Shown here: in pieces, positions 4,195-54,365 of the stretch
Numbering within the stretch: the first letter of the stretch is position 1
How the letters are laid out: each line of letters starts with the position of its first letter
Assembly (NCBI GenBank): GCA_000004985.1
Contig: GG738916.1
Strand: one strand, 5' to 3'
DNA length: 64,000 nt
Origin: Naegleria gruberi
Taxonomy: Eukaryota
Notes under the pieces: generated by a model
The model's input: only the letters and a program-made list of their open reading frames with translations
What the model was told of the DNA's origin: nothing
The model's database searches: none
Program-made: the position numbers and the translations under genes

Positions 4195-6612
4195 ATGTCA
4201 CTTGTTATGTTCAAAGTTCAACCTGTCTGTCAAAATCAAAAAACATCAAAAAAAATGTTTTGCTTTCTCTTGCCCAATCGGAATAGTAGAAATAACAACA
4301 ATACCATCACTTCCATCTCTACCACTTCAAATGTAAATGACCACCTTTCGTCCGAATTATTGTCAATTATACTTTCGTATTTTTCATTCGAAGAGAAAAT
4401 TAGTGTGATGAGATTTGTTTCTAAAACTTGGTTTACTTTCTGTTGGATTAGTACTGATTCCATCAATATTGATGCTAAATGGAGTGAACAATATGTAAAA
4501 TATATTGTAAACAAAGTTATTCAAAAACAAACTCTTCCATATTTGGAAGAATTGACTGTTTCTTCAGAACATGCTCTTACAAATGATTTTCTAGTGGGTG
4601 ATTTCCTAACAAAATCAAGAAAATTGCAAAGACTCTTCTTGAAACAACCCATCAATTCATCTCAATTATTTAATGTCACCAATCATTTGAATAATTTGAC
4701 AAACATTTATTTGAATATTCATAATGTTAAGAATGAAACTCTCATTTCAACATTTAAAGATTTGGATTTTAATGATTTGAGACCAAAGACTGTAATATTG
4801 CCAAAACTCAAGTCGTTAACTTTACAAAATGCACATTTGGATGCTGAACATTCAGCATCGATCCTATTTCTCTTCCTTTTTAAGAATATTTTAGTGAACT
4901 TTTCTAATCATTTGCAATCCAGAACTGATCTTCCATCTACCATTGATTGTAATTTGTTGGAAGAAGTTGAATTAATCAAGTGTGATGGAATTGATGAGAT
5001 TTTTGAAAAATTGGAAAAGATTACAAAAGAATATTGTGAAAAGGAATTAAAGATTTATGGATCTACTGTTGAAAAATCATTCAGAAATTGCATTCCCCTC
5101 AATTCATTGACATTCAAGTTTTGTTCTGATGTTGGAGACAAGGCATGTGTTTCTAGTTCCAAATTATTTAAGAATCTCAACAAGTTGTGGTTTGATAAGA
5201 ATAAGAAACCAACAGAGTTGACCTTTGGTGTTGCTCCACAAAGTGGTTTTACAGGTATTTTGCACGAGAACAATGGATTGGTGTCTGTCTTGTATCAATT
5301 CAGAGATTCTTTGCGGAGTTTAAAGCTGTCAGAGTTTCTTTTCCATACATCAACCACTCCAGAGGATACACCTTACAATTTTACAAAAGTATTGAGTTTA
5401 TTGACGAATTTGAAAGATATTCAACTTGATTTAGGAAGCACCAATACATCAGTCTCGACTCAATCTGTATTTTTAGCTCAGAACATGTTTGAAATTTCGA
5501 ACAGTGTTGAAAGAATAGTTCTCAATGAATGTGGTGATATATTGACACAAGAATTTTGGGATGTCATGACTGGAAACAATGTTAAAGACGAGACTACCAT
5601 TTTTTATCCTAATCTACACACACTCACTGTTCACAGTGGCAAAATGTATAACATTACCTCTAGTTTAATTAGAGAAAATGCATTCCCTAAATTGGAAAAT
5701 GTTACCTTTGACTATTGTTGCAGAATTGAGAGTTTGTACAAGGATGCAAAAGAATCCTCAACTTCAACCTTCGAACAGAATGAAGAAGTCATCACCACCA
5801 ACAAGAAACAATTTAAAAACATTACATTCGATAGATGTATCAGATTGAAACAAGGAATGAATCAATTTATTTCCATGTGCAATCCAAAACTGATTGATAC
5901 GTTTGACTTTTTGCAAATGAAAGAATGCACACGTTATGATTGGTTAGGTAAATTGACCAGTGTGAAGCATGTCAACTTGACCAGCAATATTAATCTCAAG
6001 GATGATGATTTGAAGTATTTGGCAAATTGTGAACAACTTGTCTCACTTTCTCTAGCTCACAACAAGACTCTGAATGGTTCTGGACTCAAATACCTGGCCG
6101 ATTCTACAAGAATTTGTGAAACTTTGCAGTTCCTTAATGTAGATTGGTGTTCCAAATTTGAAGATCAAGCTCTAGAGCATATTTCAAAGTTTACCAATCT
6201 AAGACAATTACACATTTTACATGTAAAGATATTGTCTCGCTTTGATTTATTGAAGAGCTTAACCAAGTTGGAAACTCTGTTGCTTGTTCGTTGTTTCAAC
6301 TTGTCTGACGAGAGTATTATTCCAGTCATTGAAAATTGTAAAGATCTGAAGGTGTTATCACTTCATGGAGGGCATCACGGTTACAATGAAGCCATGTCCA
6401 ATAAGATTTTGAAAGCAATTTCTCAAAATTTACACAATATCAGACATTTGACTGTTAATTTTGCTCCAATCACCAACGATGGCGTTAAATTGCTTGCCAA
6501 ACTTCATTACTTGGAATATTTGGATGTAATGAGAAGTAAGGCATCCGATAAGATTTTAAAATACTTCCCAAACACTTCAGTTGTTCTTGATATCAAACAA
6601 ATATCCCAATAA
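4195..6612 (+). CDS. F-box/LRR-repeat protein (FBXL-like; cysteine-containing LRR subtype).
   Basis: 805-aa ORF. It has an F-box-like segment (LLSIILSYFSFEEKISVMRFVSKTWF). C-terminal repeats with the LRR_cc signature (LKYLANCEQLVSLSLAHNKTLNGSGLKYLADS…LQFLNVDWCSKFEDQALEHISKFTNLRQLHI…). Confidence 0.75.
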   Translation: MSLVMFKVQPVCQNQKTSKKMFCFLLPNRNSRNNNNTITSISTTSNVNDHLSSELLSIILSYFSFEEKISVMRFVSKTWFTFCWISTDSINIDAKWSEQYVKYIVNKVIQKQTLPYLEELTVSSEHALTNDFLVGDFLTKSRKLQRLFLKQPINSSQLFNVTNHLNNLTNIYLNIHNVKNETLISTFKDLDFNDLRPKTVILPKLKSLTLQNAHLDAEHSASILFLFLFKNILVNFSNHLQSRTDLPSTIDCNLLEEVELIKCDGIDEIFEKLEKITKEYCEKELKIYGSTVEKSFRNCIPLNSLTFKFCSDVGDKACVSSSKLFKNLNKLWFDKNKKPTELTFGVAPQSGFTGILHENNGLVSVLYQFRDSLRSLKLSEFLFHTSTTPEDTPYNFTKVLSLLTNLKDIQLDLGSTNTSVSTQSVFLAQNMFEISNSVERIVLNECGDILTQEFWDVMTGNNVKDETTIFYPNLHTLTVHSGKMYNITSSLIRENAFPKLENVTFDYCCRIESLYKDAKESSTSTFEQNEEVITTNKKQFKNITFDRCIRLKQGMNQFISMCNPKLIDTFDFLQMKECTRYDWLGKLTSVKHVNLTSNINLKDDDLKYLANCEQLVSLSLAHNKTLNGSGLKYLADSTRICETLQFLNVDWCSKFEDQALEHISKFTNLRQLHILHVKILSRFDLLKSLTKLETLLLVRCFNLSDESIIPVIENCKDLKVLSLHGGHHGYNEAMSNKILKAISQNLHNIRHLTVNFAPITNDGVKLLAKLHYLEYLDVMRSKASDKILKYFPNTSVVLDIKQISQ

Positions 6613-6627
6613 TTGTACCATAAATAA

Positions 6628-16360: not shown

Positions 16361-18787
16361 ATGCCCAATCATTCTAAATTATTTAGTAGTAAATTACATC
16401 ACAGCGAGGACGATGATGATATCTTCTCATCAGCTTCATCGGGAGGTTCATCAGCTTCCTCCGATCTGATCGATGTTCTGATCAAGAATACAACATCATC
16501 ACTGAAGGGGAAATCATCACTCGATTTTAAATCACTCCCAACAGGGATTATATTGAAAATTATTAGAGAGTATTATATTTTGGATTTGACTCAGTATTTT
16601 ACAATTTTAGTGAGAATGATTTATCACAAGTATAGAAATAACAAGACGAATGGTTTCTTTTTGATGAAATTGTTTTTTGGAAGGGTGAAGAAGGAAAGGT
16701 CTTTGGGATTTATGGATAAATATGACATGTCTTTGAATCCATTGTTTAATTCATTGACAAGTATTTCGAATAGTAGTAGTGTTAATACGGACAGTTGTTC
16801 AACAAGTGTTGGTTCTAACAAGTCGGAGGAAAATGAAAGAGTAGTCGTTTCCCTTTTCAAAAATGTATCATTATCAATAGAGCAAAGTTTTGTCGATCAA
16901 GAACAAGCAAAACACAAACATTACTATCAAATGATTGTTTGGTTGCATCAAATGTCAACATTGGAGTTTTTGTTTGGAGGAATACCACTGAATTATGTGG
17001 AATGGAATGTTCCTTATCCAGCCATTTTGGCCTCAGCTTTAAATAATCATGATTCCAATACACAATTGTTGGAAGAGATGAATTCCTCTCAGGTGGTAGT
17101 TGCTGGAGCTAAAAGTAATAGAAAATTTATTATTCGATCAGATGAACAATTTGAGGATTTGAATAGAAATCGTGTGAATAGCTTAATTCAAAATACACTT
17201 TATACGAGTAAGGAGGAAAAGACAGTGCTCAATTCTGATATATTATTCTACATTTACTTGAATGGAGTAAAGAGTGCCAAGTTGAAACTCTCTAATTTTG
17301 ACCTAGGTTTCGATCACATGACAACAAACAAGAGTAAGACTAATTTATTTTATTTGGAAAATATTGATTACCAAGGAAATAGTGATATGATGATGGAAGC
17401 ACTCAAATATTCAAAGAATATCAAGTTCTTAAACTTTATTGACTTTCCATTATCAGATCTGACCCACCTTTCGAATAACATGTTAAAATTATCACTGGAA
17501 ATTGCCAACATTTTCAATATCAAGGGAATTGAAAATATTGGAAAAATGGAAAAGCTTACCGAGCTGAAAATCATTATTGCAAAAAGTTTGCTGACAACCA
17601 CAATGAATAATTGCGATCCAATCATTGAAAAATTACAATTACAAAATCTTGACAAACTTAGGAAATTCCATCTCGAGAAAGAACCAACTATTAACTGTTC
17701 TGATTATAGAATTTTACTCAAATTGGTCAATTGCTTAACTAGCAAATTGAGAGAATTAACGTTTGCACGATTTCCTTATCCCAATATGGTTCATTCCCTT
17801 GTTAGAGAAAGATTTACAGAATTGAATTCTCTTATAATCAATGAGCCAACCATGTTGGAATTTTATGATGAACCAGTTCAATTTGATGGATTGGAACACT
17901 TTACACTCAAACTTTCCCCACAAATAGTGGCAGAAAACTCGAATTCGACTGTTAATTTACAATGCAAATTGACCAGTACCCAATTCGAGAATTTAAAGTT
18001 TAACTTCACAAATTCAAACTCTCTATGTTTCAATTTGGCTCCAAAGAATGCTTCAAATTACAAGAGTCATATTGTTGATAGTTTGGTCAATCAGGTTTTT
18101 GATAAGAACTCTCACATCTATGTCATCAGTTTTACAAATACTAGAATATCAAAACTCGAATCCATCTCTCACATGTTTCAGAAACCAAATTTTGTTCACG
18201 TACAAGTCCTCAATTTACTGCATTGTCTCAAACCAGAAATGTCAGTCACTCCAGAACTCGTGGATCAATTGGGAAAATCCTGTCCAAACCTAATTACACT
18301 CAAATGGTCTAATTTCAAGGAAAAGAAATGCTTTGAACATTTACAAAAACACTACAGACACCAACTACAGAATCTTTCTCTAAGACATTGTATTATTAGT
18401 AATTCTAAAGCTTTCGGATATCTATTCTCCATGAGTAAGCTCAAAAAGTTCTCACTCCAACTAGATCAAGCATTCCCTGCAAACTTCCATCAAACCATTT
18501 CCACACCACTTTTGACCTCCAAAACTACTTCAAATGGAAACGCTGATGAGCAATCAATTACTCAAGAAAATTCAACCACAATTCTATCTCTCTACAATGG
18601 ATGTTCTAATTTGGAATTATTTTCACTCGAAACTCCTGCATTTACAGATCCACAAGTATTGAGAGAATTATTTTCTAAAAAGAATAGAAATTTAACAAGA
18701 TTAACGATTCAAATCACTTCAAATAAGGATCAATTAGATACTCTACACGAAATTCTCAAAGAAGTTCAAAATGGAAAATTCAAATAA
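16361..18787 (+). CDS. Leucine-rich-repeat protein (probable F-box/LRR-like substrate-adaptor family member).
   Basis: 808-aa single ORF with ATG at 16361. Acidic/Ser-rich N-terminus, then many L-x-x-L-x-L repeat units (LKLSLEIANIF…LTELKIIIAKSL…LQNLSLRHCIISNSKAFGYLFSMSKLKKFSLQ). An F-box is not clearly recognisable. Confidence 0.55.
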   Translation: MPNHSKLFSSKLHHSEDDDDIFSSASSGGSSASSDLIDVLIKNTTSSLKGKSSLDFKSLPTGIILKIIREYYILDLTQYFTILVRMIYHKYRNNKTNGFFLMKLFFGRVKKERSLGFMDKYDMSLNPLFNSLTSISNSSSVNTDSCSTSVGSNKSEENERVVVSLFKNVSLSIEQSFVDQEQAKHKHYYQMIVWLHQMSTLEFLFGGIPLNYVEWNVPYPAILASALNNHDSNTQLLEEMNSSQVVVAGAKSNRKFIIRSDEQFEDLNRNRVNSLIQNTLYTSKEEKTVLNSDILFYIYLNGVKSAKLKLSNFDLGFDHMTTNKSKTNLFYLENIDYQGNSDMMMEALKYSKNIKFLNFIDFPLSDLTHLSNNMLKLSLEIANIFNIKGIENIGKMEKLTELKIIIAKSLLTTTMNNCDPIIEKLQLQNLDKLRKFHLEKEPTINCSDYRILLKLVNCLTSKLRELTFARFPYPNMVHSLVRERFTELNSLIINEPTMLEFYDEPVQFDGLEHFTLKLSPQIVAENSNSTVNLQCKLTSTQFENLKFNFTNSNSLCFNLAPKNASNYKSHIVDSLVNQVFDKNSHIYVISFTNTRISKLESISHMFQKPNFVHVQVLNLLHCLKPEMSVTPELVDQLGKSCPNLITLKWSNFKEKKCFEHLQKHYRHQLQNLSLRHCIISNSKAFGYLFSMSKLKKFSLQLDQAFPANFHQTISTPLLTSKTTSNGNADEQSITQENSTTILSLYNGCSNLELFSLETPAFTDPQVLRELFSKKNRNLTRLTIQITSNKDQLDTLHEILKEVQNGKFK

Positions 18788-21069: not shown

Positions 21070-21567
21070 TATTGTGTTATTTTTTTTGTGAGATGCTTTT
21101 TCGTTACTAGACAACGCTGCATTCTTGATGATTCACCCACTTTCGTACATGTGATGAATTTAGCCAATTTACCCTTGAGAAATTATAATTATCTCTCTGA
21201 AGTTATTTTGAACCATTTATTTGCTTTCAAATATCACCAAGTTCAAATCAAAATAAATAGAAAAATATTGTAATAATGAAAACCTAAATTATTAAGGTAA
21301 TACACTCAAAAGTTCAGACTTTATCATCCAATACATTCTAAAACAAAGACCTGCAACTCTTTCAATATTTGCAACTGTTGTAATTGATTCAGTATTGCAG
21401 AATTATTATTGGTGGGTTGCAACACACAAATTCAGCACTGCACTGTTACATTCTTAATAAGGTTACGTTCTGAATATAATCTTGAAGCATTAAATTGTCA
21501 AAGATGAAATATTCAGCTAAATGCATCCTAAAAGTCTTTTCGTGCCCTTTTTCAAAAAATTAAAAAA

Positions 21568-23320
21568 ATGCTTTCTTTTTTACGCAAGGCTTTGACACAC
21601 AACAATAACAATAATAATAACAATAAGAATAACAATACTGATAACAATAATAATAATAATAGTGATAACAATCATTTTATTCCTAATGATATTTTAATAA
21701 TAATATTTCAATTTCTTAATCAACAAGATTATATAAAAATATCATTTGTTTGTAGATATTGGAGATTTGTTGTTCAACAACCATTCCGAAAGGAATTTAC
21801 AAATTTTATTTTAAACTCTTCATATTCAATAGTTTATTGTACATTTATTATTAATGCATTTGAGTTTTTTAAATTCTTTTCTTCCATAACATTATAACAC
21901 TGTACCTGAATCAACATTTAAAACTCTGCTTTCTTCAATGAAATTACAAAGTTTATTTATTGATTCTTGTGTTGTTAAAAATAATATACCATTCAATTCT
22001 GTAAAACAATCTAATATAACTGAATTAGGATTAAATTGTAAAATGAAAAAGAAAGATTTACGTGCTTTATTTATTGTAATTCCAAATTTGAAACATTTAA
22101 GTTTAGGAATGGTAGTAACCGAATGTTTAATTAACACAGAATCATTTCTGAGTACACATTGTCATAAATTAGAAACACTCCATTTACAATTATTACCTGA
22201 AAATCAAAAAAAAATTGTAAAATTATTACATGGAATATTTAATCCATCAACAACAATATCCAATCTCATTGATATTAGAATATTTGTAACAGATAATAAT
22301 CCAACAAGTAATAGAAAATTAAATAATTTTACATTTAATTTTAATTCATTTCCAAATTTAAAATATTTATTTCTTGATATTACCTATATTTATACATTAG
22401 AATCAATTAGTAATGTATTAAATTCAAATAATATTTCAAAATTACAAGAATTTGGATTTGGAACTATTAGAAAAGCTATTGAAAAATTACAATTTAATTC
22501 GAGTGAAAATTTACAAAATTTAAAAAAATTATTTTTAAATAGAACAGAAATGATGACAAATATTGATAATCTTCCTTCATTAGAATTATTATATATAGAT
22601 GAATATGCAAAAAAACATTATTCCGCTACAAAATATTCAAAACCATGGAATTTAGCATCTAATGTGAAAATGCCATCTCTAAAATATTTACATTTAAATC
22701 TTTTTAATGAAACTCATTTACCTGATCGATTAAATGTGGAACCATTTAAAAATATTAAATATTTTTATTTTGAATCTGAATATAATATTGATTTATCAGA
22801 ATTGAGTAAATTAAATTTAGAAATATTAATTCTTAAAATTTCTGAAGAATATAATAAGAATATACTTCATCACATTTCTAAAATATCAACATTGAGAGAT
22901 TTAACATTTAGTAATCCTATTAGTGAAATTGATTTGAAATTACTTTGTAAATTACCAAATTTAGAATATCTGAATATTAGATTGGAATTTTATAGTGAAA
23001 CATCTTTTACTTTTAATTCACTAACTACACTCTCAATTCATTCAAAAAATTTGAAAGGATTAAATTTCTTTCAAATATCAAATTTACCAAAATTTAAAAC
23101 TTTACTAATTCGTAATCCTTATGATAATAACTATACATGGTGGTTGCAACCATTATTTCCAAATTTACAAATAATTAAAGCAAGTACTGACAGTTTTGGA
23201 ATATTTTTAACATCTCAATATAATGATGATATGAATTTTGGTGAGTATGAAGTTTCACAAAGAGCAGCAAATCATTTCCAAAATGAAAACGTATGGCTCT
23301 TTCCAAAAAAATTTATTTAA
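21568..23320 (+). pseudogene. F-box/LRR protein, paralog A of the 27373..29145 gene, disrupted by an 8-bp indel (frameshift) at about 21885-21890.
   Basis: About 95% nucleotide identity to 27373..29145 over gene plus about 150 bp of 3' flank. Paralog B reads cttccataacattatttttccataatactgtacc where A reads cttccataacattataacactgtacc. This splits A into ORFs 21568..21897 (F-box part, IPNDILIIIFQFLNQQDYIKISFVCRYWRFVV) and 21938..23320 (LRR part). Confidence 0.6.
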
Positions 23321-24031
23321 TATTAAAGCTCTGTATCAGAGGTTTCTCCTTGGTCACAGTTGATTTTTTAGAAGGATCTCCTTCAGCCAATATCTTTGGT
23401 TTCAAATGGTGAATTCAAGCAAGCCAATGCTGAGAAGGCCAAAGTTGACAATGATTATGTTTGTAAACATTTCAAATCCTATTTTTCAAAAAATTCAAAT
23501 AAAAAGTTGGTACATCATCATAGTTGTTATTTATCATCATTATAAAAGCCTCTTGGATGGTTCAAGAGATGCTGAATTCAAATGTTATAGAGATTGAACA
23601 GAATATTGTTGTACATTATATTTATTGTACCCAAGAAGGAACTTTTGGAATAAAGGACAGTTCCTTCAAGTTTACCAATTCAAATGCCTTTCATTTGGAA
23701 TAAGCCAAGCTCCCAGGAACTCACCAAGATTATGAAAAAACTGGTAACCAAGTGGAGACAACAAGGTATTATTTTGTTCCTAAAATTCAGAAAGAAAAGG
23801 GTGTCTTTACTCCCTGACTCAAACTGAAGCAATTTAGACTTCAAACGTAATATTTCCATCATTTGCAAGCCTAAGAACTGAAAAAGGATAAGGAATTGCT
23901 TTAGTGTTGAGAAATGAAGGAGAATTTTGTGAAGAATTAAGACAGGCCAAAATTAAATCCTTACAAGTCTGATTTCTAACTTGGAAAATTTATTTATTTA
24001 TTGATTGGCCCATGGTTTTACCTCATTTCCA

Positions 24032-26504
24032 TTATTTTCTGTTTACTCTCAACCAATAATCGATAATAACTTTCAAGAAATTATTGCATGGTATATTTTC
24101 TTGACAAGATAATTGGATTTTTTGTAAATAATCAAGAGTTAAATTATTTGAGCAAAATATCTTGAAATACTCAACTAGCTCTCTACAATCATTATTATTT
24201 TGTGAAACTGAAGCTAAATTTAGTAATATAATAAATTCAGTATCATTAATGGAATATAATTTTTCAACAATCAAGATACAGACATGTTTAACAATCCATG
24301 TAATATCCAATTGTTGTGCAATGATTAAAATACCAACCAAATCATTCAATTTAAGGTAATTGAACTCATATCCATAACATAATTTACATATGATTTGTAA
24401 TATTGTATTAATTTTAGCTGAATTATTGAACAAATCAATAATCCAATGATCTGATACCATCATTTCAATGAATTCATACAAGTCAACCACATTATTTTCA
24501 TTATTTTTAAATAGAATATTTAAAACTGAACTATGAACGGATAGAATTGATTTATGTAATTGCAATAATTCATTTTTATCCTTATTAATAATTACATGAA
24601 TATCACTATTACTTTCATCATTATATAATAATTTTAATGATTCAGTTACATTTTTGGCAATATTTTCAAGATTATCAATTTTATAATTAATTTGTTTAAA
24701 TGGTTGTTTAACATTATTAATTTTATCTTGAATAATTTCGAATAATGGATCTGATTTCAATAAAGTTGCATTTTCTTTAATAAATGCAAGACACTTATTT
24801 GCCAACAATAGCAAAATACTATTTTTAGCTTGTTTTAAAATATTTAAAGAAAGATAATTATTAACTATTCGTAAAATCCTCATAATGTTATCTACATTCA
24901 TTCTATTTGAAATGTCATTAAATAACAATAATTTAATTTCATGCTTGATATCATTAATATCATTTAATATAAATAGACAAGTTACTAAATTTAATTCTAA
25001 TTCTCCAAATGAAATGAAATTAATAAATTTATCATAATTACTAAATAAATCATCTATATTTAAACAATTTAAATCAATAATTGCGTTTTTAATTAAATAA
25101 TATAAAACTTTTTGGTCATTCTCATTTAAATGTTCAATTATATCATTTTTAATTAAATTATAAAAATCATTTGAAATATTTTTTAATAAATTTAAATCTA
25201 AATAAAAATTAGAATTAATTTCATAATTGAACTTAAAATTATCAGTTACCATAATATCATTAATCTTGAGACTATTCTCATTATCTGTTTCATGAATAAA
25301 AATAGTAAAATTTTTACCACAACAAATTTGAATTTCATCACCTTCCTTAATAGTAAATGGTAATTCAATTAATTTTAGTTCATTGGCTGATTTATTAGCA
25401 TATCCTAATTCGCCAAATTCATTAGATCCAAATGAATAGAACTTTTGGTCTACTGTTTGCAAAACACTGTGGAAGGTACCACTTTCCATATTAATAATAT
25501 TATCCATATTTGCTTGTTTAGAATTATAGTCAATATATTTGCATTCATTATTATATAACGATAAAATTTGATATTCATTCAATATTAATTGATCATAATT
25601 TTTCTCAAATTTAAACTCATTATAATTATTATGTAATTTAATTACTTTTTTAGGATTGTAATAATCTGCCAAGCCATAATCAATTAAAGTATAATCTAGA
25701 ATTTACAATAGAAGAATCATTAAAAATAATGAAACTAGTTCTTCCATTACATTTAATATCCTTAATATCTTCAATATTCTTATTAACTAATTTGGTAACA
25801 TTCATAAAATTATTTAAGGTAAAATAATCTTCAACATGTAATTTACCATTTACAATACTTTCAATTACAAATGGTTGGAATGATTGTGAATATTCATTCA
25901 TTCCACAAACATACAATTCATTTTCAAATGTTGTGAAAAATGTCAAATGAAATGTTACAAATATTTTGTTTACTTTTAACTTTTCTAAATTTGTATTTTG
26001 TAATAAATTAACGGCTACATCATTTGATTTTTTAGCAATGATAGCCAATTGTCCATGTTCATTATTACCAATACCAAATATGGAATTTAATTTAGATAAA
26101 AATACAACATGTTCTTTACCAATCGCAAAATCAATAATTTTGTCACTAGTATTTAAATTATTAAATTTAATCAATGTAGGAATATTAGAAATATTATTAA
26201 TAAATGAACAATTTCCCATTTTGTAAACATATCCCTTACGCGTAAGAAATATGCACAATTGATCTTGACTTTTAAATTTAATAATCTTATCATTAATTAA
26301 ATAATTTTGTAAATAATCAATTTTATCAAAACATGTATCATTTAATTTTGTAACAGTAATAATATCACTTTGTTTCTTCCAGAATCCATCTCCGCATCCG
26401 TAAACAAATTGTGATTTAGAAGAATTAATACCGAAAGCAGTGTTATTAGGTTCTGTTTCGTCGTCCACTACTTGATCAACATGGTGAATGGTGAATTGAT
26501 TCAT
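24032..26504 (-). CDS. RCC1-repeat and BTB-like domain protein (RCBTB-like), present as two ORFs in different frames.
   Basis: ORF 26504..25680 (true ATG at 26504) and ORF 25672..24032 (track start is a TTG). RCC1-like blades (GIGNNEHGQLAI, YSFGSNEFGELGY). A BTB-like segment (LQLHKSILSVHSSVLNILFKNNENNVVDLYEFIEMM). Very Asn/Ile-rich. The junction at 25672..25682 needs a -1/+1 shift or a non-canonical short intron. Confidence 0.5.
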
Positions 26505-27372
26505 TTTTTTTTATAGAGTGGTCTCTCGGTTGTTATTGATACAAGAGACATTAATAAACTTGTACACCTTTTATTTTGTTATAGATTGTTACAACAAATA
26601 TTGTGCTTACTCAGCATTGCATTCATTGGTTTTGTCTAGCTAGATCGGCGGAAATGAAATCTCATTCGTGTGATTGATGTGAGAGATGTTACGCGCCAAA
26701 ATTTCTACACCAAAAAATAAGCAAAGCCACTTTTTCGAACTCTTATTTGAAAATCCATTAAGGAAATTAAACTCTCAGTACTTTCAAGAAATACCTCTAC
26801 TCATCATCATTGGTATTTAATTCAATCAACATAAATCAGCATCAATTTGGAATATTTCAATTAGAGTAGCTGGGATACATCTCACCAAAAGTAATAAGAG
26901 CAATATTGTGTGATGGTGTTTCTTCTTGGAATGAAGAAAGTTGCCAACCTCGGAAATATCAAACATTATCATTAAGCTGTAATTCAACATCACATTATAT
27001 TTATTTTTATATTAATAGTAATACTTGTTCATTAGGAATTTCTTCAACTAATTAATATATTTTCATCATGAATTCCAAAAACATTGTATGATTATTAGGG
27101 ATGTCTAATCTAATATCACCATCAAGAGAGTTGGATTATTTGTATTCATCGAGTTGTGGAATTTTACTTCATCATACCTTATCATCAGCAAGCTCACTTC
27201 AGATCATTAAGGTAAATATCTTAATGGTCATCATCAACCAGTTGCAGATTAAAACTGTGATTTAATGTCTCAATTAAGTTGATTGCTATGTTTGGAAAAT
27301 ACACGAACGATTCAATATTTCAATTTTTAAAAAGGAAGGAAGATTCTTCATGACTTTCAAAAAATTAAAAAA

Positions 27373-34468: not shown

Positions 34469-34734
34469 TCATTTCTAATTAATTTAATAGCTCCAACTGA
34501 ATACTAAAGCTCAAGCTTTGCGTGTTGGTTGCATTTATTTTCCATCACAATGCTGAAACAACTTACCAAATGTGACTTACAAGACATTGTAATGTTGTCT
34601 TTGAATTGTAGCTTGTAATGGAAAAATGGCGTTCAAAAAAAAAATAGCATGTTGAATAGCTTGCTGTCCATCATTCTGAGAAAATATCAATCCATCAATA
34701 ATAGCACAACTTGATAATAATTAATAGTATTAAC

Positions 34735-36459
34735 ATGATGAATTATTGTAAAATATTACAATTGAGTCAAGATATATTATGCAATGTAATTATTCCCTAC
34801 TGTAATTCACATACTTTGATTGCTTTTGCTGGGGTTTGTTCCGAGTGGAGAAGAATTGTCAAAGAAAGTGATACTAGAGGAATCAAGTGTGTAAATGTGA
34901 AGCATAAATCAGCAAGATACAGATTTGAATCATTAAATGATGAGGAGGAAATGAGTGGATTAATGAAAGGTGACCTCTTGCAAATATTCTCACAAATGGA
35001 AATAAGAACTTTTCCAGAATTTGAGGAAACTATTTTTCTTAACAGATCTTTTTTTAAAAAGTTATTCAATTCAAAAAAACTGGAATTATTGACATTACAA
35101 AATACTAATATTATTACAATTATTATTCCTGCTAAAGATATTTCACCAATTATAACTCTGAAATTAATAAGTGTTCAAATGGAAGTTGAAAATTTAAGAA
35201 CTATATGCACTAATTTACTAAATTTAACAGATCTAACATTAATTGATAATGGGCTTGATTATAAGGCAACACTTGTATTGACCAAATCAAAGTTGACTCG
35301 TCTAACACATCTTACACTTCGTAATAGAATTGGAGATGAAGGTGTTAATCAATTATTGACTCAACCAGGAAATATTAGAACTTTGAAACATATTAACTTT
35401 GTTGCAAGACCTCCAGAATCATCTCAAAAAGACAATATTTCATACATAGCACCAATTAATAGTTCAATGTTACCAAATCTTGAATCTTTTTCAATAGATT
35501 TGGAGATGTCTACAAAATCAATTATGAATGTGTTGAATAGTGGTAATTCATGGAGAGAATTGACTTTTTTTCACTCACATTTAAATAGTGAATGTATGAA
35601 ACAAATTGGAAAAATTCATACACTCCAAAAACTTTGTTTTCAATCAAAATTGGAAGTAGATTTACCTTACAGATGTTTATTACCTCTTCAAAATAATCTC
35701 ACTCATCTAGAAATTGGTCCTGTTGACAATAATACATTCTCCGAATTGAGTGAGGGTAACTTTGTTAATTTGAAATATTTATGCATTCTAAATACAAAAC
35801 AAGGAAATGAAATAGATGAATATGTAATACGAAAATTCTGTGAAAAAGTTCAAAATCTAACCTATTTAGAGTTAAGAAGAGTAGTAATGAAAAGTGGATG
35901 TATGAATCACATATCCCAACTTTCAAAAATTACTGATTTACGAATTATTCAAACACATATTGATAGTGAAGAAATGAAATATTTATCAAGAATGAGTAAC
36001 TTGACAACATTATATTTAGGAAGTGAAATTACATTTGATGGAATTTCATATTTATGCAACGGAAATTTACTAAATTTACACACTTTAAAGTTTACAAGAG
36101 TTCCTTCAGGCAAGTTCAAATATGACTCAAAGTTTACATCAAGTTTAGCTCATTCAAATTTTCCAAAATTAAGATATTTGAGTTTTTATTATGAATTTGA
36201 TATTTATGCAACTGATATGTTACATTCTGGTCCATCTCTGAAAAATTTGATACATTTAGAACTTTATTGGGTAGATTTAACAATTACACCTATTTTAGTA
36301 CCTATAGTCAATAATCTGGCGCCTAAATATCTGACTGGAATTGGAGGCTTTCCAAAGCTTAAAGCTTTCTCACCAGAAGCCATACCACAATTAAGACAAC
36401 CAACAAAAATCAACTATATGACTGGACATACCGATATACGAATTGATGAATTTATTTAA
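34735..36459 (+). CDS. F-box/LRR-repeat protein (member of the AGVCSxWRRIV subfamily), copy 1 of an inverted pair.
   Basis: True ATG at 34735 (track start 34711 is TTG). F-box LSQDILCNVIIPYCNSHTLIAFAGVCSEWRRIV, then LRRs. About 98% amino-acid identity with the product of 52527..54365 on the opposite strand. Confidence 0.75.
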   Translation: MMNYCKILQLSQDILCNVIIPYCNSHTLIAFAGVCSEWRRIVKESDTRGIKCVNVKHKSARYRFESLNDEEEMSGLMKGDLLQIFSQMEIRTFPEFEETIFLNRSFFKKLFNSKKLELLTLQNTNIITIIIPAKDISPIITLKLISVQMEVENLRTICTNLLNLTDLTLIDNGLDYKATLVLTKSKLTRLTHLTLRNRIGDEGVNQLLTQPGNIRTLKHINFVARPPESSQKDNISYIAPINSSMLPNLESFSIDLEMSTKSIMNVLNSGNSWRELTFFHSHLNSECMKQIGKIHTLQKLCFQSKLEVDLPYRCLLPLQNNLTHLEIGPVDNNTFSELSEGNFVNLKYLCILNTKQGNEIDEYVIRKFCEKVQNLTYLELRRVVMKSGCMNHISQLSKITDLRIIQTHIDSEEMKYLSRMSNLTTLYLGSEITFDGISYLCNGNLLNLHTLKFTRVPSGKFKYDSKFTSSLAHSNFPKLRYLSFYYEFDIYATDMLHSGPSLKNLIHLELYWVDLTITPILVPIVNNLAPKYLTGIGGFPKLKAFSPEAIPQLRQPTKINYMTGHTDIRIDEFI

Positions 36460-37459
36460 TTAAGCCAATTAATAATTCTTACTTCTAGCACTCCAGAGAA
36501 GATCAAACCAAGTTATCTTTGTTATTAATAATTCGACTAAATCTGAAATATTTGTTACTATAGAGCTATTTATTATAACCTGCACCAAAAAAAATGAGGT
36601 TTATAAGGCAAGCACTGGAGGTTGTAGTGCCTCAATCGGAACAAGGGACCATTTTAATGATGTTTATTGGAACGTGCTCCTTACACTGAAAAAGTTCAAA
36701 ACGGAAATATTGAATGGGTTCCTCATGATGAGTTGGAATTTACCACAAAAACTCAAACTTTATTATCACAAATGAGAGTGTTATGAATGGGTCATCAGGT
36801 GGTTGTTTACAATCTTATCAATGCCAAAAAACTCAAGTTGGTGAGTATACAATTGTTGAATTTCATGGAATTCACTTTGGAGGAGAATTTTGAAAGTGTC
36901 AACATTGCTTGAAGAATATCAAACACTTGAAAGAGAAGAATATCAGATGGTCTGATTGGAATCGATATATTAATAAGTGGGACCATTGTACCTGTAAATC
37001 ACCAACCGGTTTAGCTTACAACTACTCTGTCTCTGTTCATCATCCACTATTTAAAGATGAAAACAAAAAGCTAATTCTTGAGGATTTATTGGAGTTATTG
37101 GATGTTAATATTGAAGATGAACGGTTGGCAAGATTAAAAGAATACCTCCAATAGTAAGATCCCTGTAAGAAAACACTTTCTGTATGATAGATCCCAACTA
37201 AACATAACATTGATATTTACCCATAGAATCTTCAATATCTGATATAAGAAAGAAGGAATTGTTTATAAACATTTATTTATTGGTGGCAATACCATGTTGG
37301 AGGGACTAACTTCTATAGCTCCAGAATATTTCAAGGTAAATGCTCCACCTGAGAGAAAATACTGGTAGTTCAATGTTTGACCATCTTACCTGTTGAAAAT
37401 AGAGCGAGAAGCTTCATAATAATACAATTAGTACATAATTGGTTTATATACATGTGAAA

Positions 37460-38383: not shown

Positions 38384-38396
38384 GTTTGTTTAACAT

Positions 38397-48089: not shown

Positions 48090-49646
48090 ATGCGCCTGTT
48101 ACCTTTTCTAAAGTTGAATAACAAACCAAGAAGAGAATCAGCACGGCAATTATTGCTCTCTGATGATATTATTTACATTATTCTTCCATGCTTGCATCAA
48201 AATGAAATTATTAAATTTGCTGGTGTTTGTTCATCGTGGAGAAGAATTGTTATTGATGCTTCCGAAGGTAGTTTCTCTAATGTATTATATCATAGGAGTG
48301 AATTTAAGAAAATACCAATGAAAATGGAGAACAAGAGTGAAAACCAACAAGTTTTATTAATGTTTTCAAAATTTGATTTCTCTGATTGCAATTTAACTTT
48401 ATCACAATTCAAAAGAATATTCATGTCAACTAAATTGACATCATTGACACTATGCCGTACAAATATTATGATTTTCCCTTCTGAATCACTCACATTTCTA
48501 ACCATTAATCAAATTAATCTTTCTCTAAACAATATTGAACAATTAATATTTCAATTTAAAAATTTGAAAAATTTAATTTTATTACATACTAATGTTGATT
48601 GTGAGTGCATTGATCTTATTATTAATAATAATCAATTAGAGAGTCTTATTATTGAGCAGAAAATAATATCTGAGAGAGGATTCTCTGCCGTGTTCAATCC
48701 TCATTTCAATTCATCACTCAATACCCTTCATGTTAAGAGTTTGAACACAGAGGAATTTCTTAGTTTTAATATTGATACACTTAAATTTCCTCATTTGAGA
48801 ACATTGGAAATTATTGGATTATTTGATAGATTAGTGCTTGAGAAAATATTTAATTATGGTCTTGAATTAACGTATTTAGCAATATTGACAACGAGCATTA
48901 TGAGCTACGATGTTGATTTTTCATATGTACATCAAATACCCTCTCTCAAATCATTTTCCTATAATGGACCTCTTAATAATGTAGATGTTCAACAATTTCT
49001 TAATAAGGATATGGAACATATTCTGTTTTCAGATCTTGACACAGTATCATCATTGAATTTATCTAGAATACTTTGTGACAAATATACTAGTTTAATTTCA
49101 TTAGAGCTTTCAAATTGTGAATTACCTACAAATTGTGGACAATACATTTACAATTTAAAACACTTGACAAAACTAGATATGGGATATAGTAAAATACAAT
49201 CAACAATTTGTGGATATATTTTCAAGATGAAAACTCTGGTTCATCTCAATCTAAAATGTTGTAAATTAAGAGATGACGGATTGAAGTATTTAGAACATCA
49301 CAACTTGGATAATATACAGACATTAATTCTAGAAGAAAACGAATTTACATATATTGGCTTTGAATACTTAATTCGTGCCAAATTTCACCGTCCATTGAAA
49401 TATCTTTCCATTTTTGACCATATTAATAATAAGGGAACAATACATTTTGACACTGACCACACTCTTAATGTTAAAACACTCTTTATTTGTGATAGGTATA
49501 TAGATTATAGGGGAGTAATTTCTATTCTACAAAATTGTATAATAGAAGAATTAATTATCAAGAAACCACAATTACTCTATCTTGGATCACACTCCATTAA
49601 ACAACTTTCAAAGAAGAATCACGTGAAGGTAGTAATGTTTATATAA
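48090..49646 (+). CDS. F-box/LRR-like protein (AGVCSxWRRIV subfamily, divergent member).
   Basis: 518 aa. F-box-like LLSDDIIYIILPCLHQNEIIKFAGVCSSWRRIV, then LRR-like units (LKNLILLHTNVDCECIDLII…LTKLDMGYSKIQ…LVHLNLKCCKLRDDGLKYL). Confidence 0.65.
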   Translation: MRLLPFLKLNNKPRRESARQLLLSDDIIYIILPCLHQNEIIKFAGVCSSWRRIVIDASEGSFSNVLYHRSEFKKIPMKMENKSENQQVLLMFSKFDFSDCNLTLSQFKRIFMSTKLTSLTLCRTNIMIFPSESLTFLTINQINLSLNNIEQLIFQFKNLKNLILLHTNVDCECIDLIINNNQLESLIIEQKIISERGFSAVFNPHFNSSLNTLHVKSLNTEEFLSFNIDTLKFPHLRTLEIIGLFDRLVLEKIFNYGLELTYLAILTTSIMSYDVDFSYVHQIPSLKSFSYNGPLNNVDVQQFLNKDMEHILFSDLDTVSSLNLSRILCDKYTSLISLELSNCELPTNCGQYIYNLKHLTKLDMGYSKIQSTICGYIFKMKTLVHLNLKCCKLRDDGLKYLEHHNLDNIQTLILEENEFTYIGFEYLIRAKFHRPLKYLSIFDHINNKGTIHFDTDHTLNVKTLFICDRYIDYRGVISILQNCIIEELIIKKPQLLYLGSHSIKQLSKKNHVKVVMFI

Positions 49647-52504: not shown

Positions 52505-52526
52505 TAATATAAATTAGTTTGCTTTA

Positions 52527-54365
52527 TTAAATAAATTCATCAATTCGTATATCTGTATATGCAATCAAATAGTTGATTTTTGTTGGTTGTCTTAATTGTG
52601 ATATGACTTTTGCTTTAAGGGCTGCAAAACCTCCAATTCCAGTCAGATATTTAGGTGCCAGATTATTGACTATAGGTACTAAAATAGGTGTAATTGTTAA
52701 ATCTACCCAATAAAGTTCTAAATGTATCAAATTTTTCAGAGATGGTCCAGAATGTAACATATCAGTTGCATAAATATCAAATTCATAATAAAAACTCAAG
52801 TATCTTAATTTGGGAAAATTTGAATGAGCTAAACTTGATGTAAACTTTGAGTCATATTTGAACTTGCCTGAAGGAACTCTTGTAAACTTTAAAGTTTGTA
52901 AATTTAGTAAATTTCCGTTGCATAAATATGAAATTCCATCAAATGTAATTTCACTTCCTAAATATAATGTTGTCAAGTTACTCATTCTTGATAAATATTT
53001 CATTTCTTCACTATCAATATGTGTTTGAATAATTCGTAAATCAGTAATTTTTGAAAGTTGGGATATGTGATGCATACATCCACTTTTCATTACTACTTTT
53101 CTTAACTCTAAATAGGTTAGATTTTGGACTTTTTCACAGAATTTTCGTATTACATATTCATCTATTTCAGTTCCTTGTTTTGTATTTAGAATGCATAAAT
53201 ATTTCAAATTAAGAAAGTTACCCTCACTCAATTCAGAGAATGTATTATTGTCAACAGGACCAATTTCTAGGTGAGTGAGATTATTTTGAAGAGGTAATAA
53301 ACATCTGTAAGGTAAATCTACTTCCAATTTTGATTGAAAACAAAGTTTTTGGAGTGTATGAATTTTTCCAATTTGTTTCACACATTCACTATTTAAATGT
53401 GAGTGAAGAAAAGTCAATTCTCTCCATGAATTACCACTATTCAACACATTCATAATTGATTTTGTCGACATCTCCAAATCTATTGAAAAAGATTCAAGAT
53501 TTGGTAAAATTGAACTATTAATTGGTGCTATGTATGAAATATTGTCTTTTTGAGATGATTCTGGAGGTCTTGCAACAAAGTTAATATGTTTCAAAGTTCT
53601 AATATTTCCTGGTTGAGTCAATATTTGATTAACACCTTCATCTCCAATTCGATTACGAAGTGTAAGATGTGTTAGACGAGTCAACTTTGATTTGGTCAAT
53701 ACAAGTGTTGCCTTATAATCAAGTCCATTATCAATTAATGTTAGATCTGTTAAATTTAGTAAATTAGTGCATATAGTTCTTAAATTTTCAACTTCCATTT
53801 GAACACTTATTAATTTCAGTGTTGTAATTGGTGAAATATCTTTAGCAGGAATAACAATTGTAATAATATTAGTATTTTGTAATGTCAATAATTCCAGTTT
53901 TTTTGAATTGAATAACTTTTTAAAAAAAGATCTGTTAAGAAAAATAGTTTCCTCAAATTCTGGAAAAGTTCTTATTTCCATTTGTGAGAATATTTGCAAG
54001 AGGTCACCTTTCATCAATCCACTCATTTCCTCCTCATCATTTAATGATTCAAATCTGTATCTTGCTGATTTATGCTTCACATTTACACACTTGATTTCTC
54101 TAGTATCACTTTCTTTTACAATTCTTCTCCACTCGGAACAAACTCCAGCAAAAGCAATCAAAGTATGCCAATTAAAATAGGGAATAATAACATTGCAAAA
54201 TATATCTTGACTCAATTGTAATATTTTGGAATAAATCATCATGTTAATACTATTATCTGTTGTTGTTGTGCTATTACTATCGGTTGTTGTGTTATTATTG
54301 ATGGATTGATAGTGGGTACTTTCTCTAGAAAAACAACAGAATGATGGACAACAAGTTGTCAACAT
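52527..54365 (-). CDS. F-box/LRR-repeat protein, inverted near-identical paralog of 34735..36459, with a longer N-terminal extension.
   Basis: 612-aa ORF with ATG at 54365. About 98% identical to copy 1 across the F-box and all LRRs. The N-terminal 40-aa extension (MLTTCCPSFCCFSRESTHYQSINNNTTTDSNSTTTTDNSIN) is degraded by indels in copy 1. Confidence 0.75.
   Translation of the reverse strand: MLTTCCPSFCCFSRESTHYQSINNNTTTDSNSTTTTDNSINMMIYSKILQLSQDIFCNVIIPYFNWHTLIAFAGVCSEWRRIVKESDTREIKCVNVKHKSARYRFESLNDEEEMSGLMKGDLLQIFSQMEIRTFPEFEETIFLNRSFFKKLFNSKKLELLTLQNTNIITIVIPAKDISPITTLKLISVQMEVENLRTICTNLLNLTDLTLIDNGLDYKATLVLTKSKLTRLTHLTLRNRIGDEGVNQILTQPGNIRTLKHINFVARPPESSQKDNISYIAPINSSILPNLESFSIDLEMSTKSIMNVLNSGNSWRELTFLHSHLNSECVKQIGKIHTLQKLCFQSKLEVDLPYRCLLPLQNNLTHLEIGPVDNNTFSELSEGNFLNLKYLCILNTKQGTEIDEYVIRKFCEKVQNLTYLELRKVVMKSGCMHHISQLSKITDLRIIQTHIDSEEMKYLSRMSNLTTLYLGSEITFDGISYLCNGNLLNLQTLKFTRVPSGKFKYDSKFTSSLAHSNFPKLRYLSFYYEFDIYATDMLHSGPSLKNLIHLELYWVDLTITPILVPIVNNLAPKYLTGIGGFAALKAKVISQLRQPTKINYLIAYTDIRIDEFI

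What the first reader, a model, noticed from the sequence alone, without database searches (positions are those of the whole stretch)
4195..54365. Local expansion of F-box/LRR substrate-adaptor genes (8 members in 50 kb)
F-box-like N-termini followed by leucine-rich repeats occur at 4195..6612, 16361..18787 (F-box weak), 21568..23320, 27373..29145, 31383..32504 (F-box + Rab-like), 34735..36459, 48090..49646 and 52527..54365. Three share the AGVCSxWRRIV F-box variant and two share the poly-Asn IPNDILIIIFQFLNQQDY type. Such clusters are typical of fast-evolving, lineage-specific families of SCF adaptors.
Basis: partly seen in the sequence, partly recalled or inferred. Interest (0 to 1): 0.5.

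Follow-up and report, generated by a model that had tools for sequence, protein, structure and literature searches.

The report
Mixed F-box gene neighbourhood in Naegleria
This stretch of the amoeba Naegleria gruberi's genome carries seven genes for F-box proteins (the parts of ubiquitin ligases that choose targets), but they are a mix of unrelated types plus two very recent gene copies, not one eight-member family, which is ordinary for this kind of gene.

Summary
The window is a Naegleria gruberi nuclear scaffold. The ORFs exist at the stated coordinates and the two quoted motif groups are real.

Seven of the eight genes have F-box support:
- C, D and E pass Pfam's cut-off; A sits exactly on it.
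- F and G are sub-threshold (E about 0.002-0.006); H is 95% identical to F.
- B has none by any test.

LRR status:
- Solid for A (human FBXL2, E 5e-12) and for H, and by homology F and G (AlphaFold solenoid; best fold match COI1).
- Weaker for C and D.
- E has no LRR. It is an F-box + Rab-like GTPase already catalogued by Herman et al. 2021.

"One local expansion of eight" does not hold. Only C/D (92% identical, 5.8 kb apart, C frameshifted) and F/H (95%, inverted, 16 kb apart) are recent, gene-sized, N. gruberi-specific duplicates. G is an old paralogue of H (24%). A, B and E are unrelated to the rest.

N. lovaniensis synteny shows H is the ancestral copy. It also shows that the block holding C, D, E and F is missing between B and Paf1 there.

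I could not test enrichment over the genome background. This is ordinary birth-and-death of probable SCF adaptors. The oddest point is that C, D and an RCC1-BTB gene between them form an AT-rich island (GC3 9-17%), and C/D have no close relative in any database searched.

The parts
4195..6612 (+). A: F-box (about 4342-4455) plus an FBXL-type (cysteine-containing) LRR protein, 805 aa. The true start may be the ATG at 4255, which follows an A-rich leader.
   Evidence: Pfam F-box 20.5 bits, equal to the cut-off, on the N-terminal fragment. LRR_14 E 9.5e-8. C-terminus matches human FBXL2 (6o60_C), E 4.7e-12. Sequence read. Unrelated to the other members.
16361..18787 (+). B: 808-aa conserved Naegleria protein with a probable LRR-like C-terminal half. 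No F-box shown, so it is not counted as a member.
   Evidence: 100% identical to an annotated N. gruberi predicted protein with no Pfam domain; N. lovaniensis orthologue at 38%. No Pfam hit. No local F-box HMM hit. hhalign probability 0.5%. AlphaFold pLDDT 43, with strand/helix repeats at 376-494 and 646-785. Foldseek top hits are LRR proteins including D3, COI1 and TIR1, but TM is only about 0.2.
21568..23320 (+). C: frameshifted copy of D (F-box about 21679-21783). An 8-bp deletion at 21893/21894 gives a stop at 21895-21897. The remaining 460 codons are open in another frame from 21938. Probable young pseudogene.
   Evidence: DNA alignment with D. 92% amino-acid identity to D. dN/dS 1.08 over the LRR part. 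Pfam F-box-like 35.1 bits.
27373..29145 (+). D: intact 590-aa poly-Asn + F-box (about 27490-27594) + LRR protein. It has no close relative in the databases searched.
   Evidence: Pfam F-box-like 32.4 bits; LRR_4 E 3e-5, below the cut-off. PDB best hits are the FBXW7 F-box (E 0.027) and the Skp2 LRR (E 0.07). A full HMMER scan of 1.84 billion representatives gave only 4 hits, E 6e-5 to 5e-4. GC3 0.11.
31383..32504 (+). E: F-box (about 31401-31523) + divergent Rab-like GTPase, 360 aa. Exons 31383-32117 and 32157-32504; GT..AG intron 32118-32156. No LRR. Switch II reads WDQCGPE (canonical WDTAGQE from general knowledge).
   Evidence: Spliced protein: Ras 67 bits, F-box-like 29.8 bits. Splice sites read. 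The identical sequence is listed as 'Rab ... F-box' (corrected XP_002670359.1) in Herman et al. 2021, Additional file 10.
34735..36459 (+). F: derived, N. gruberi-specific copy of H (F-box about 34756-34869 + LRR), 574 aa. The ancestral N-terminal extension is broken into a 21-codon upstream ORF starting near 34649.
   Evidence: 95% amino-acid identity to H. dS 0.063, dN/dS 0.32. Pfam F-box 17.8 bits, E 0.003. Upstream sequence comparison.
48090..49646 (+). G: old paralogue of H/F (F-box about 48153-48257 + LRR), 518 aa.
   Evidence: 24% identity to F/H over the full length, E 5e-14. Shares the invariant FAGVCSxWRRIV. Pfam F-box-like 18.4 bits, E 0.002. LRR motif hits at 20-26-residue spacing in two runs.
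52527..54365 (-). H: ancestral F-box (about 54105-54221) + LRR gene of the F/G/H group, 612 aa, about 17 strand-helix repeats.
   Evidence: Orthologues in N. lovaniensis (43%) and N. fowleri (41%). Conserved order NHL-H-TM380 in N. lovaniensis. AlphaFold pLDDT 80-95 over residues 125-600. Foldseek COI1 E 6.6e-9, ribonuclease inhibitor TMt 0.70. N-terminal profile: the top six PDB hits are all F-boxes, but E is 0.1-0.6.
21550..23505 (+). Duplicated DNA segment (C copy), matching 27355-29281 as a direct repeat, 92.6% identity. It runs from about 20 bp upstream of the ATG to the A-rich leader of the gene that follows D.
   Evidence: Self-BLASTN. Boundary sequences.
27355..29281 (+). Duplicated DNA segment (D copy).
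34631..36473 (+). Duplicated DNA segment (F copy), inverted relative to 52513-54387. 94% identity overall; the core 34722-36365 is 98% identical. It is gene-sized.
52513..54387 (-). Duplicated DNA segment (H copy).
24032..26504 (-). Context: an RCC1-repeat + BTB gene (two ORFs in different frames) lying between C and D. It has the same extreme AT-richness as C and D.
   Evidence: Pfam RCC1, RCC1_2 and BTB. GC3 0.15.

Best explanation
The window is a duplication-prone stretch of the Naegleria gruberi nuclear genome. It carries seven F-box genes of at least four unrelated types:
- A, an FBXL2-like F-box/LRR protein.
- E, an F-box + Rab-like GTPase of a family already described in Naegleria.
- The C/D pair, which has no close relative in the databases searched.
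- The H/F/G group.
B is a conserved LRR-like protein with no demonstrable F-box.

Shown here:
- Two very recent, gene-sized, N. gruberi-specific DNA duplications. H was copied in inverted orientation to give F, and both copies are under purifying selection. C and D are direct duplicates, and C is already frameshifted.
- One older duplication, G versus H.

Inferred from what is known of F-box and FBXL proteins, not shown here: the intact F-box/LRR proteins act as substrate receptors of SCF (Skp1-Cul1-Rbx1) ubiquitin ligases. The N-terminal three-helix F-box would dock on Skp1 and the LRR solenoid would bind the substrate. E would link a GTPase module to SCF. The pattern is ordinary birth-and-death turnover of adaptor genes, not one eight-member expansion.
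For: Organism: B is 100% identical to an N. gruberi predicted protein, and F/H match one at 95%.

F-box:
- Pfam.
- The same weak hit at the same position in the H orthologues.
- The top six PDB hits of the F/H/G N-terminal profile are all F-boxes.

LRR:
- A versus FBXL2, E 4.7e-12.
- H-family profile versus PDB LRR proteins, E 2e-7.
- H AlphaFold solenoid; Foldseek COI1, TIR1, ribonuclease inhibitor, FBXL2.

Family structure: all-against-all BLASTP.

Duplications:
- Self-BLASTN.
- dS 0.03-0.13 for C/D and 0.063 for F/H; dN/dS 0.32 for F/H and 1.08 for the LRR part of C/D.
- C frameshift.

Synteny:
- N. lovaniensis has NHL-H-TM380 in the same order.
- There, B to Paf1 is about 4 kb against 21 kb in the window, so the block holding C, D, E and F is not at that position.

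E is listed in Herman et al. 2021.

Other local paralogue pairs in the window are two pairs of membrane proteins and the NHL-repeat genes.
Against: - F-box scores for F, G and H are below Pfam's curated cut-off, and the modelled F-box helices of H have pLDDT below 50. Skp1 binding is not established for three of the seven.
- No Skp1, Cul1 or substrate evidence was obtainable.
- The LRR of C/D rests on sub-threshold hits.
- The genome-wide frequency of F-box genes in N. gruberi could not be measured. Two N. lovaniensis loci also carry extra F-box-like/LRR genes: one has a weak Pfam F-box hit (E 0.043) and the other is judged from its N-terminal sequence only. So the density of unrelated F-box genes here may or may not exceed chance.
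- C's frameshift could in principle be an assembly error in this gapped draft.
Confidence: 0.75

Rival explanations
1. One reading: all eight genes are members of one fast-evolving F-box/LRR family that expanded locally by repeated tandem duplication.
For: - Seven share an F-box and six an LRR-type C-terminus.
- hhalign aligns the H-family profile with D co-linearly through the F-box and first repeats, probability 97%.
Against: - BLASTP finds no relationship of A, B or E to the others beyond the roughly 35-residue motif.
- hhalign gives 98.9% between the H family and an arbitrary RI-type LRR protein, so the D match is not specific.
- Against the H family, A scores 43% (LRR region only), B 3.8% and E 18%.
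- E has a GTPase and no LRR, and belongs to another family.
- B has no F-box.
Confidence: 0.08
2. Apart from the two recent duplications, the clustering is chance. F-box and F-box/LRR genes are so numerous in Naegleria that several unrelated ones within 50 kb is expected somewhere in the genome, and a reader scanning the genome in 64-kb windows would meet such a window.
For: - The two N. lovaniensis loci fetched for other reasons (about 44 kb) each contain an extra F-box-like + RI-type LRR gene.
- An F-box-like gene also sits beside the H orthologue in N. fowleri.
- Herman et al. report many F-box-GTPase genes in Naegleria.
Against: - Those loci are syntenic to this window, so they are not an independent background sample.
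- No genome-wide count was available.
Confidence: 0.4
3. The AT-rich island (C, RCC1-BTB, D; 21.5-29.2 kb) is foreign DNA, for example from a giant virus or an AT-rich symbiont that encodes F-box, LRR and BTB host-manipulation proteins.
For: - GC3 is 0.09-0.17 against 0.18-0.35 in all other genes of the window.
- C/D have no close relative among 1.84 billion representative proteins and no orthologue in N. lovaniensis or N. fowleri.
Against: - No viral-contig relative of D or of the RCC1-BTB protein was found.
- Among D's four weak hits (E 6e-5 to 5e-4), the only named F-box match is an N. fowleri F-box protein; the best hit overall is a Planctomycetota LRR protein matching the LRR region.
- The intergenic spacers inside the island have normal GC of 30-33%.
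- The A-rich leader before the ATG looks like that of neighbouring native genes.
Confidence: 0.08
4. F, G and H (and B) are LRR proteins whose N-terminal motif no longer works as an F-box. They would act outside SCF, for example as scaffolds or innate-sensor-like LRR proteins.
For: - Pfam scores are below the cut-off.
- The leucine-proline dipeptide usual at the start of an F-box is replaced by Leu-Ser.
- The F-box helices in the H model have low confidence.
Against: - The motif is the most conserved stretch of the family across three species and G (invariant FAGVCSxWRRIV).
- The best PDB matches of that stretch are all F-boxes aligned in register.
- UniRef names the N. lovaniensis orthologue an F-box domain-containing protein.
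Confidence: 0.15

Closest known systems
Human FBXL2 / FBXL20 and Skp2 (FBXL class of SCF substrate receptors)
   Same: A has an N-terminal F-box followed by cysteine-containing LRRs that align with FBXL2 at E 4.7e-12. D's best PDB matches are the FBXW7 F-box and the Skp2 LRR.
   Different: - A is 805 aa, with about 500 residues of unassigned sequence between the F-box and the FBXL-like repeats.
- No CaaX motif was examined.
- No orthology is shown, only domain-level similarity.
Plant COI1 / TIR1 / D3(MAX2) F-box-LRR receptors
   Same: They are the best structural matches of the H model (COI1 E 6.6e-9, about 585 aligned columns). The overall plan is the same: a short F-box followed by a long single LRR solenoid of about 17 repeats.
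   Different: - Sequence identity is 12-14%.
- TM is only 0.44-0.47, and ribonuclease inhibitor fits the repeat geometry better (TMt 0.70).
- There is no evidence of a small-molecule pocket.
Naegleria-specific F-box + Rab-like GTPase clades (Herman et al. 2021, BMC Biol, PMC8296547, Additional files 4 and 10)
   Same: E is literally one of the listed genes (identical 360-aa corrected model). The paper already notes birth-and-death evolution and disrupted copies in these clades.
   Different: Nothing. E is a known member and is not an F-box/LRR protein.
Lineage-specific tandem arrays of F-box genes in plants and nematodes (general knowledge; not checked in the literature here)
   Same: Recent local duplicates, a pseudogenised copy (C), and relaxed constraint on the substrate-binding half (dN/dS about 1 for the C/D LRR).
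   Different: - The scale is tiny: two duplication events, not dozens.
- Neighbouring F-box genes are of unrelated types.
- The F/H pair is under purifying selection (dN/dS 0.32).

Membership tests
F-box protein family (Pfam PF00646 / PF12937) | F-box motif detected by the curated HMM at or above the gathering score: members C, D, E, A | tested here: met
   C 35.1, D 32.4 and E 30.5 bits against a cut-off of 24.3. A scores 20.5 bits against a cut-off of 20.5 on the N-terminal fragment, and 15.5 bits in the full-length scan.
F-box protein family (Pfam PF00646 / PF12937) | F-box motif detected by the curated HMM at or above the gathering score: members F, G, H | tested here: inconclusive
   F 17.8 bits and G 18.4 bits (E 0.002-0.006), below the cut-off. 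H gets no hit although it is 95% identical to F. Orthologues give weak hits at the same site. The top six PDB hits of the family's N-terminal profile are all F-boxes, at E 0.1-0.6.
F-box protein family (Pfam PF00646 / PF12937) | F-box motif detected: member B | tested here: not met
   No Pfam hit at E<=10. No hit with a local F-box HMM run with filters off. hhalign probability 0.5%. Only the LPxxIxLKI start resembles an F-box.
F-box protein family | Three-helix F-box fold | tested here: inconclusive
   The H model has helices 53-63, 66-73 and 77-84 at the motif, but pLDDT is below 50. The B model has helices 61-106 at pLDDT of about 33.
F-box protein family | Binding to Skp1 and assembly into an SCF ligase | not testable with these tools
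   No complex prediction or experiment was available.
FBXL subclass (F-box followed by leucine-rich repeats) | LRR solenoid C-terminal to the F-box | tested here: met
   - A: FBXL2 E 4.7e-12.
- H, and by homology F and G: PDB LRR hits at E 2e-7, AlphaFold pLDDT 80-95, Foldseek COI1/TIR1/RI.
- C/D: weaker. LRR_4 24.6 bits is below the cut-off; a bacterial LRR protein matches at E 6e-5.
- E: not met; it has a GTPase instead.
Naegleria F-box-Rab-like GTPases (Herman et al. 2021) | N-terminal F-box plus divergent Rab-like GTPase; listed in the published catalogue | tested here: met
   E's spliced sequence is identical to the entry marked 'Rab ... XP_002670359.1* F-box'. Pfam Ras 67 bits plus F-box-like 29.8 bits.
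Single locally expanded (tandemly duplicated) gene family | All members mutually homologous over their length and closer to each other than to genes elsewhere | tested here: not met
   Only C-D (92%), F-H (95%) and G-F/H (24%, E 5e-14) are related. A, B and E are not. Whether they are closer to each other than to genes elsewhere could not be tested without the genome.

The most novel reading that the evidence does not exclude
C, D and the RCC1-BTB gene between them (21.5-29.2 kb) are a newly born or newly acquired, extremely AT-rich island of cullin-RING ligase substrate receptors: SCF-type F-box/LRR and Cul3-type BTB. D and C have no close relative in any database searched, including the sister Naegleria species. 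On this reading the island would be a young adaptor module, possibly of foreign origin or shaped by conflict with intracellular bacteria or giant viruses, caught between birth (D intact) and death (C frameshifted).
Probability: 0.1. Interest if true: 0.5.

Novelty: new member of a known kind. Interest (0 to 1): 0.2.

Why it matters
It matters little beyond annotation. It shows that birth-and-death turnover of F-box adaptor genes operates in a heterolobosean amoeba, with two datable, species-specific, gene-sized duplications.

It also yields practical corrections for the N. gruberi genome:
- C/D appear to be missing from the annotated protein set.
- C is probably a pseudogene.
- B should not be called an F-box protein.

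If the AT-rich island proved to be a recent acquisition or a de novo adaptor module, it would be a small but neat case of how ubiquitin-ligase specificity factors arise.

Tried and rejected
- Word-indexed homologue search with full-length D returned nothing. The poly-Asn tract probably saturated the candidate list. I replaced it with the exhaustive HMMER scan.
- Exact-product look-ups for N. gruberi proteins G, D, P0001 and P0004 found no record. So the official gene models around the window could not be read.
- Viral-contig scans with D and with the RCC1-BTB protein were negative.
- A regular-expression LRR count did not separate candidates from controls, except for G. I dropped it in favour of profile and structure evidence.
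- hhalign of the H family against D looked like evidence of common descent (97%). A control with an unrelated RI-type LRR protein scored 98.9%, so I rejected it as evidence of local duplication.
- AlphaFold of B with a two-sequence alignment gave pLDDT 43. Its Foldseek hits only suggest LRR-like repeats.
- I considered retroposition as the mechanism for the gene-sized duplicates. It is rejected: the copies include about 20-45 bp of upstream sequence, and in C the neighbouring gene's leader, and there is no poly(A) remnant.
- Literature searches found no genome-wide F-box count for Naegleria. The 2010 genome paper is not held in the library.
- L003 (N. fowleri) was not available in the scripting sandbox, so it was checked only by pairwise comparisons.

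Full report
**What the window is.** The sequence is 31-39% GC outside one AT-rich stretch. It has N-gaps, short introns, and densely packed eukaryotic genes. B (16361-18787) is 100% identical to a "predicted protein [Naegleria gruberi]" on a 245-kb scaffold. F/H match another N. gruberi protein at 95%, with orthologues in N. lovaniensis (43%) and N. fowleri (41%). The window is therefore part of the published N. gruberi nuclear genome.

**Checking the observation.** All eight ORFs exist at the stated coordinates. I use these labels:
- A = 4195-6612
- B = 16361-18787
- C = 21568-23320
- D = 27373-29145
- E = 31383-32504
- F = 34735-36459
- G = 48090-49646
- H = 52527-54365 (minus strand)

The quoted motifs are real. 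FAGVCS(E/S)WRRIV occurs in F, G and H and is invariant in the N. lovaniensis and N. fowleri orthologues. IPNDILIIIFQFLNQQDY behind a poly-Asn tract occurs in C and D.

**F-box evidence.**

| Gene | Pfam F-box result |
|---|---|
| C | 35.1 bits, above cut-off |
| D | 32.4 bits, above cut-off |
| E | 30.5 bits, above cut-off |
| A | 20.5 bits on the N-terminal fragment, exactly at cut-off; 15.5 bits full length |
| F | 17.8 bits, E 0.003, below cut-off |
| G | 18.4 bits, E 0.002, below cut-off |
| H | no hit, but 95% identical to F |
| B | no hit even at E<=10 |

Further support for F, G and H:
- Both H orthologues give weak F-box hits at the same position.
- A profile of the F/H/G N-termini finds FBXW11, Skp2 and beta-TrCP F-boxes, aligned in register, as its six best PDB matches. 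The E-values are only 0.1-0.6.
- UniRef names the N. lovaniensis orthologue "F-box domain-containing".

Further tests on B:
- An F-box HMM built from the other members plus three human F-boxes, run with filters off on all six frames, recovers the seven others and nothing else in the window.
- hhalign of the B/orthologue N-terminus against the F-box alignment gives probability 0.5%.

So there are seven F-box genes, not eight, and no hidden extra ones.

**LRR evidence.**
- A: the C-terminus aligns with human FBXL2 at E 4.7e-12.
- H family: the profile hits PDB LRR proteins at E 2e-7. The AlphaFold model of H has pLDDT 80-95 across residues 125-600, with about 17 strand-helix repeats. Its best structural matches are COI1 (E 6.6e-9), ribonuclease inhibitor (TMt 0.70), TIR1 and FBXL2.
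- D: only modest support. LRR_4 is at E 3e-5, below the cut-off. A planctomycete LRR protein matches at E 6e-5 in a library of 1.84 billion proteins. The Skp2 LRR matches at E 0.07.
- B: the model is poor (pLDDT 43), but it shows strand/helix repeats, and Foldseek returns LRR proteins at TM of about 0.2.
- E: no LRR. Once the GT..AG intron at 32118-32156 is removed, it is a 360-aa F-box + Ras/Rab-type GTPase (Ras 67 bits).

**Are they one family?** No. All-against-all BLASTP gives three links:
- C-D, 92% identity.
- F-H, 95% identity.
- G-F/H, 24% over the full length, E 5e-14.

All other pairs share at most the roughly 35-residue motif. hhalign links the H family to D at 97%. The same profile scores 98.9% against an arbitrary RI-type LRR protein from N. 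lovaniensis, so that link is not evidence of local descent. Against the H family, A scores 43% (LRR only), B 3.8% and E 18%.

E is already catalogued. Its exact sequence appears in Additional file 10 of Herman et al. 2021 (PMC8296547) as a Rab-family gene with an F-box, a corrected model of XP_002670359.1. That paper describes Naegleria-specific F-box-Rab-like clades with birth-and-death evolution.

**The real duplications.** Self-BLASTN finds two gene-sized repeats:
- 21550-23505 matches 27355-29281, direct, 92.6% identity.
- 34631-36473 matches 54387-52513, inverted, 94% overall, with a 98% core of 1.64 kb.

For C/D:
- C carries an 8-bp deletion relative to D. It creates a TAA at 21895-21897 and shifts the remaining 460 codons into another frame.
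- dN/dS over that part is 1.08. C is probably a young pseudogene.
- The C copy also includes the A-rich leader of the gene that follows D. Together with the absence of a poly(A) remnant, this argues for DNA-level duplication and against retroposition.

For F/H:
- dS is 0.063 and dN/dS is 0.32, so both copies are constrained.
- H keeps the N-terminal extension seen in the orthologues. In F that extension is broken into a 21-codon upstream ORF.

**Synteny.**
- In N. lovaniensis the H orthologue is flanked by an NHL-repeat fragment and a TM380-like gene, as in the window. H is therefore the ancestral copy and F the N. gruberi-specific derivative.
- The B orthologue in N. lovaniensis lies next to the UBC gene, and about 4 kb from Paf1, TRAP-gamma and CCT.
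- In the window, B and Paf1 are 21 kb apart. So the block holding C, the RCC1-BTB gene, D, E, the calpain gene and F is not at that position in the sister species.
- Other local paralogue pairs in the window are TM254/TM483, TM380/TM497 and two NHL-repeat genes. The neighbourhood is generally duplication-prone.

**Is the density more than chance?** The two duplications are not chance. For the unrelated genes (A, E, the C/D lineage, the H/G lineage) I could not obtain a genome-wide F-box count from the tools or the literature.
- The two N. lovaniensis loci fetched for other reasons each carry an extra F-box-like + RI-type LRR gene.
- N. fowleri has an F-box-like gene next to the H orthologue.
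- So the background density may be high. These loci are syntenic to the window, however, so they are not an independent sample. This question stays open.

**Mechanism.**
- Shown: domain composition, duplication history and selection regime.
- Inferred from the established biology of F-box and FBXL proteins: the intact proteins (A, D, F, G, H) serve as SCF substrate receptors. The F-box docks on Skp1 and the LRR solenoid binds substrates. E couples a probably GTPase-impaired Rab-like module (WDQCGPE in place of the canonical WDTAGQE, the latter from general knowledge) to SCF.
- Not tested: Skp1 binding.
- For F/G/H the motif is divergent (Leu-Ser replaces the usual Leu-Pro), so I give about 15% to the possibility that it no longer functions as an F-box.

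**An oddity.**
- C, D and the RCC1-BTB gene between them have GC of about 21% and GC3 of 0.09-0.17. Every other gene in the window has GC3 of 0.18-0.35. The spacers between these three genes have normal GC.
- An exhaustive HMMER scan of 1.84 billion representative proteins finds no close relative of D, not even an annotated N. gruberi model. There are only four hits at E 6e-5 to 5e-4; the best is a planctomycete LRR protein and another is an N. fowleri F-box protein.
- Viral-contig scans were negative.
- I read this as a young, fast-evolving, apparently unannotated native gene pair. Foreign origin is not excluded (about 8-10%).

**Verdict.** This is ordinary birth-and-death of probable SCF adaptor genes in a known genome: new members of a known kind, with low interest. 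The AT-rich island holding C, D and the RCC1-BTB gene is the only mildly unusual feature.

Noticed in passing
window 21500-29200: C, the RCC1-BTB gene and D have GC of about 21% and GC3 of 0.09-0.17. All other genes in the window have GC3 of 0.18-0.35, and the spacers between these three genes are 30-33% GC. D/C have no close relative among 1.84 billion representative proteins and appear to be unannotated in N. gruberi.
   Followed up: partly
window 24032-26504 (minus strand): An RCC1-repeat + BTB/POZ gene, a Cul3-adaptor-like architecture, sits between the two F-box duplicates. Its two ORFs are in different frames, meeting at about 25672-25682, which implies a short intron or a frameshift.
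   Followed up: partly
window 32738-34468 (+): A calpain-family cysteine protease (Peptidase_C2, 163 bits) has an N-terminal stretch that just misses Pfam's VHL beta-domain cut-off (20.3 against 21 bits). That is an unusual VHL-like + calpain combination, next to the F-box genes E and F.
   Followed up: no
window 54508-60301 (+): Two NHL-repeat genes have N-terminal 1.2-kb parts that are 96% identical (54512-55689 and 56163-57363). The second continues into a long array of 117-nt (39-aa) cysteine-rich EGF-like repeats. The region is interrupted by assembly gaps (55792-55841, 57364-58379, 60107-60156), so copy number is uncertain.
   Followed up: no
window 45636-52504: Two pairs of weakly related multi-pass membrane proteins are interleaved with G and H: TM254/TM483 (E 6e-5) and TM380/TM497 (32% over 84 aa). 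A TM380-like gene also neighbours the H orthologue in N. lovaniensis.
   Followed up: partly
window 14050-15980 versus L002 624-9892: The UBC-VLRF1 segment is inverted relative to B when compared with N. lovaniensis. That species also has three extra genes there: an F-box-like RI-type LRR gene, DUF4116 and asparagine synthase.
   Followed up: partly
L002 3121-4323 and L001 7135-8016 (N. lovaniensis): These are members of a highly regular 28-residue RI-type LRR family (LRR_6 up to 204 bits). Their N-terminal segment (PFIDDIIxEILxFLESLFIxQxCMKISKQWRQV) is weakly F-box-like. Pfam gives E 0.043 for the L002 gene and no F-box hit for the L001 gene. They suggest that F-box/LRR genes are abundant across Naegleria genomes.
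   Followed up: partly
window 34649-34714: F retains the ancestral start codon of H. Indels turn the former N-terminal extension into a 21-codon upstream ORF ahead of the main ATG at 34735, which might reduce translation of F.
   Followed up: no
window 4177-4255: The ORF 2914-4179 and gene A are in the same frame and only 15 bp apart. An A-rich leader (CAAAAAACATCAAAAAAAATG) precedes a second ATG at 4255 and resembles the leaders in front of C, D and the 29283 gene, so A's true start may be 4255.
   Followed up: no
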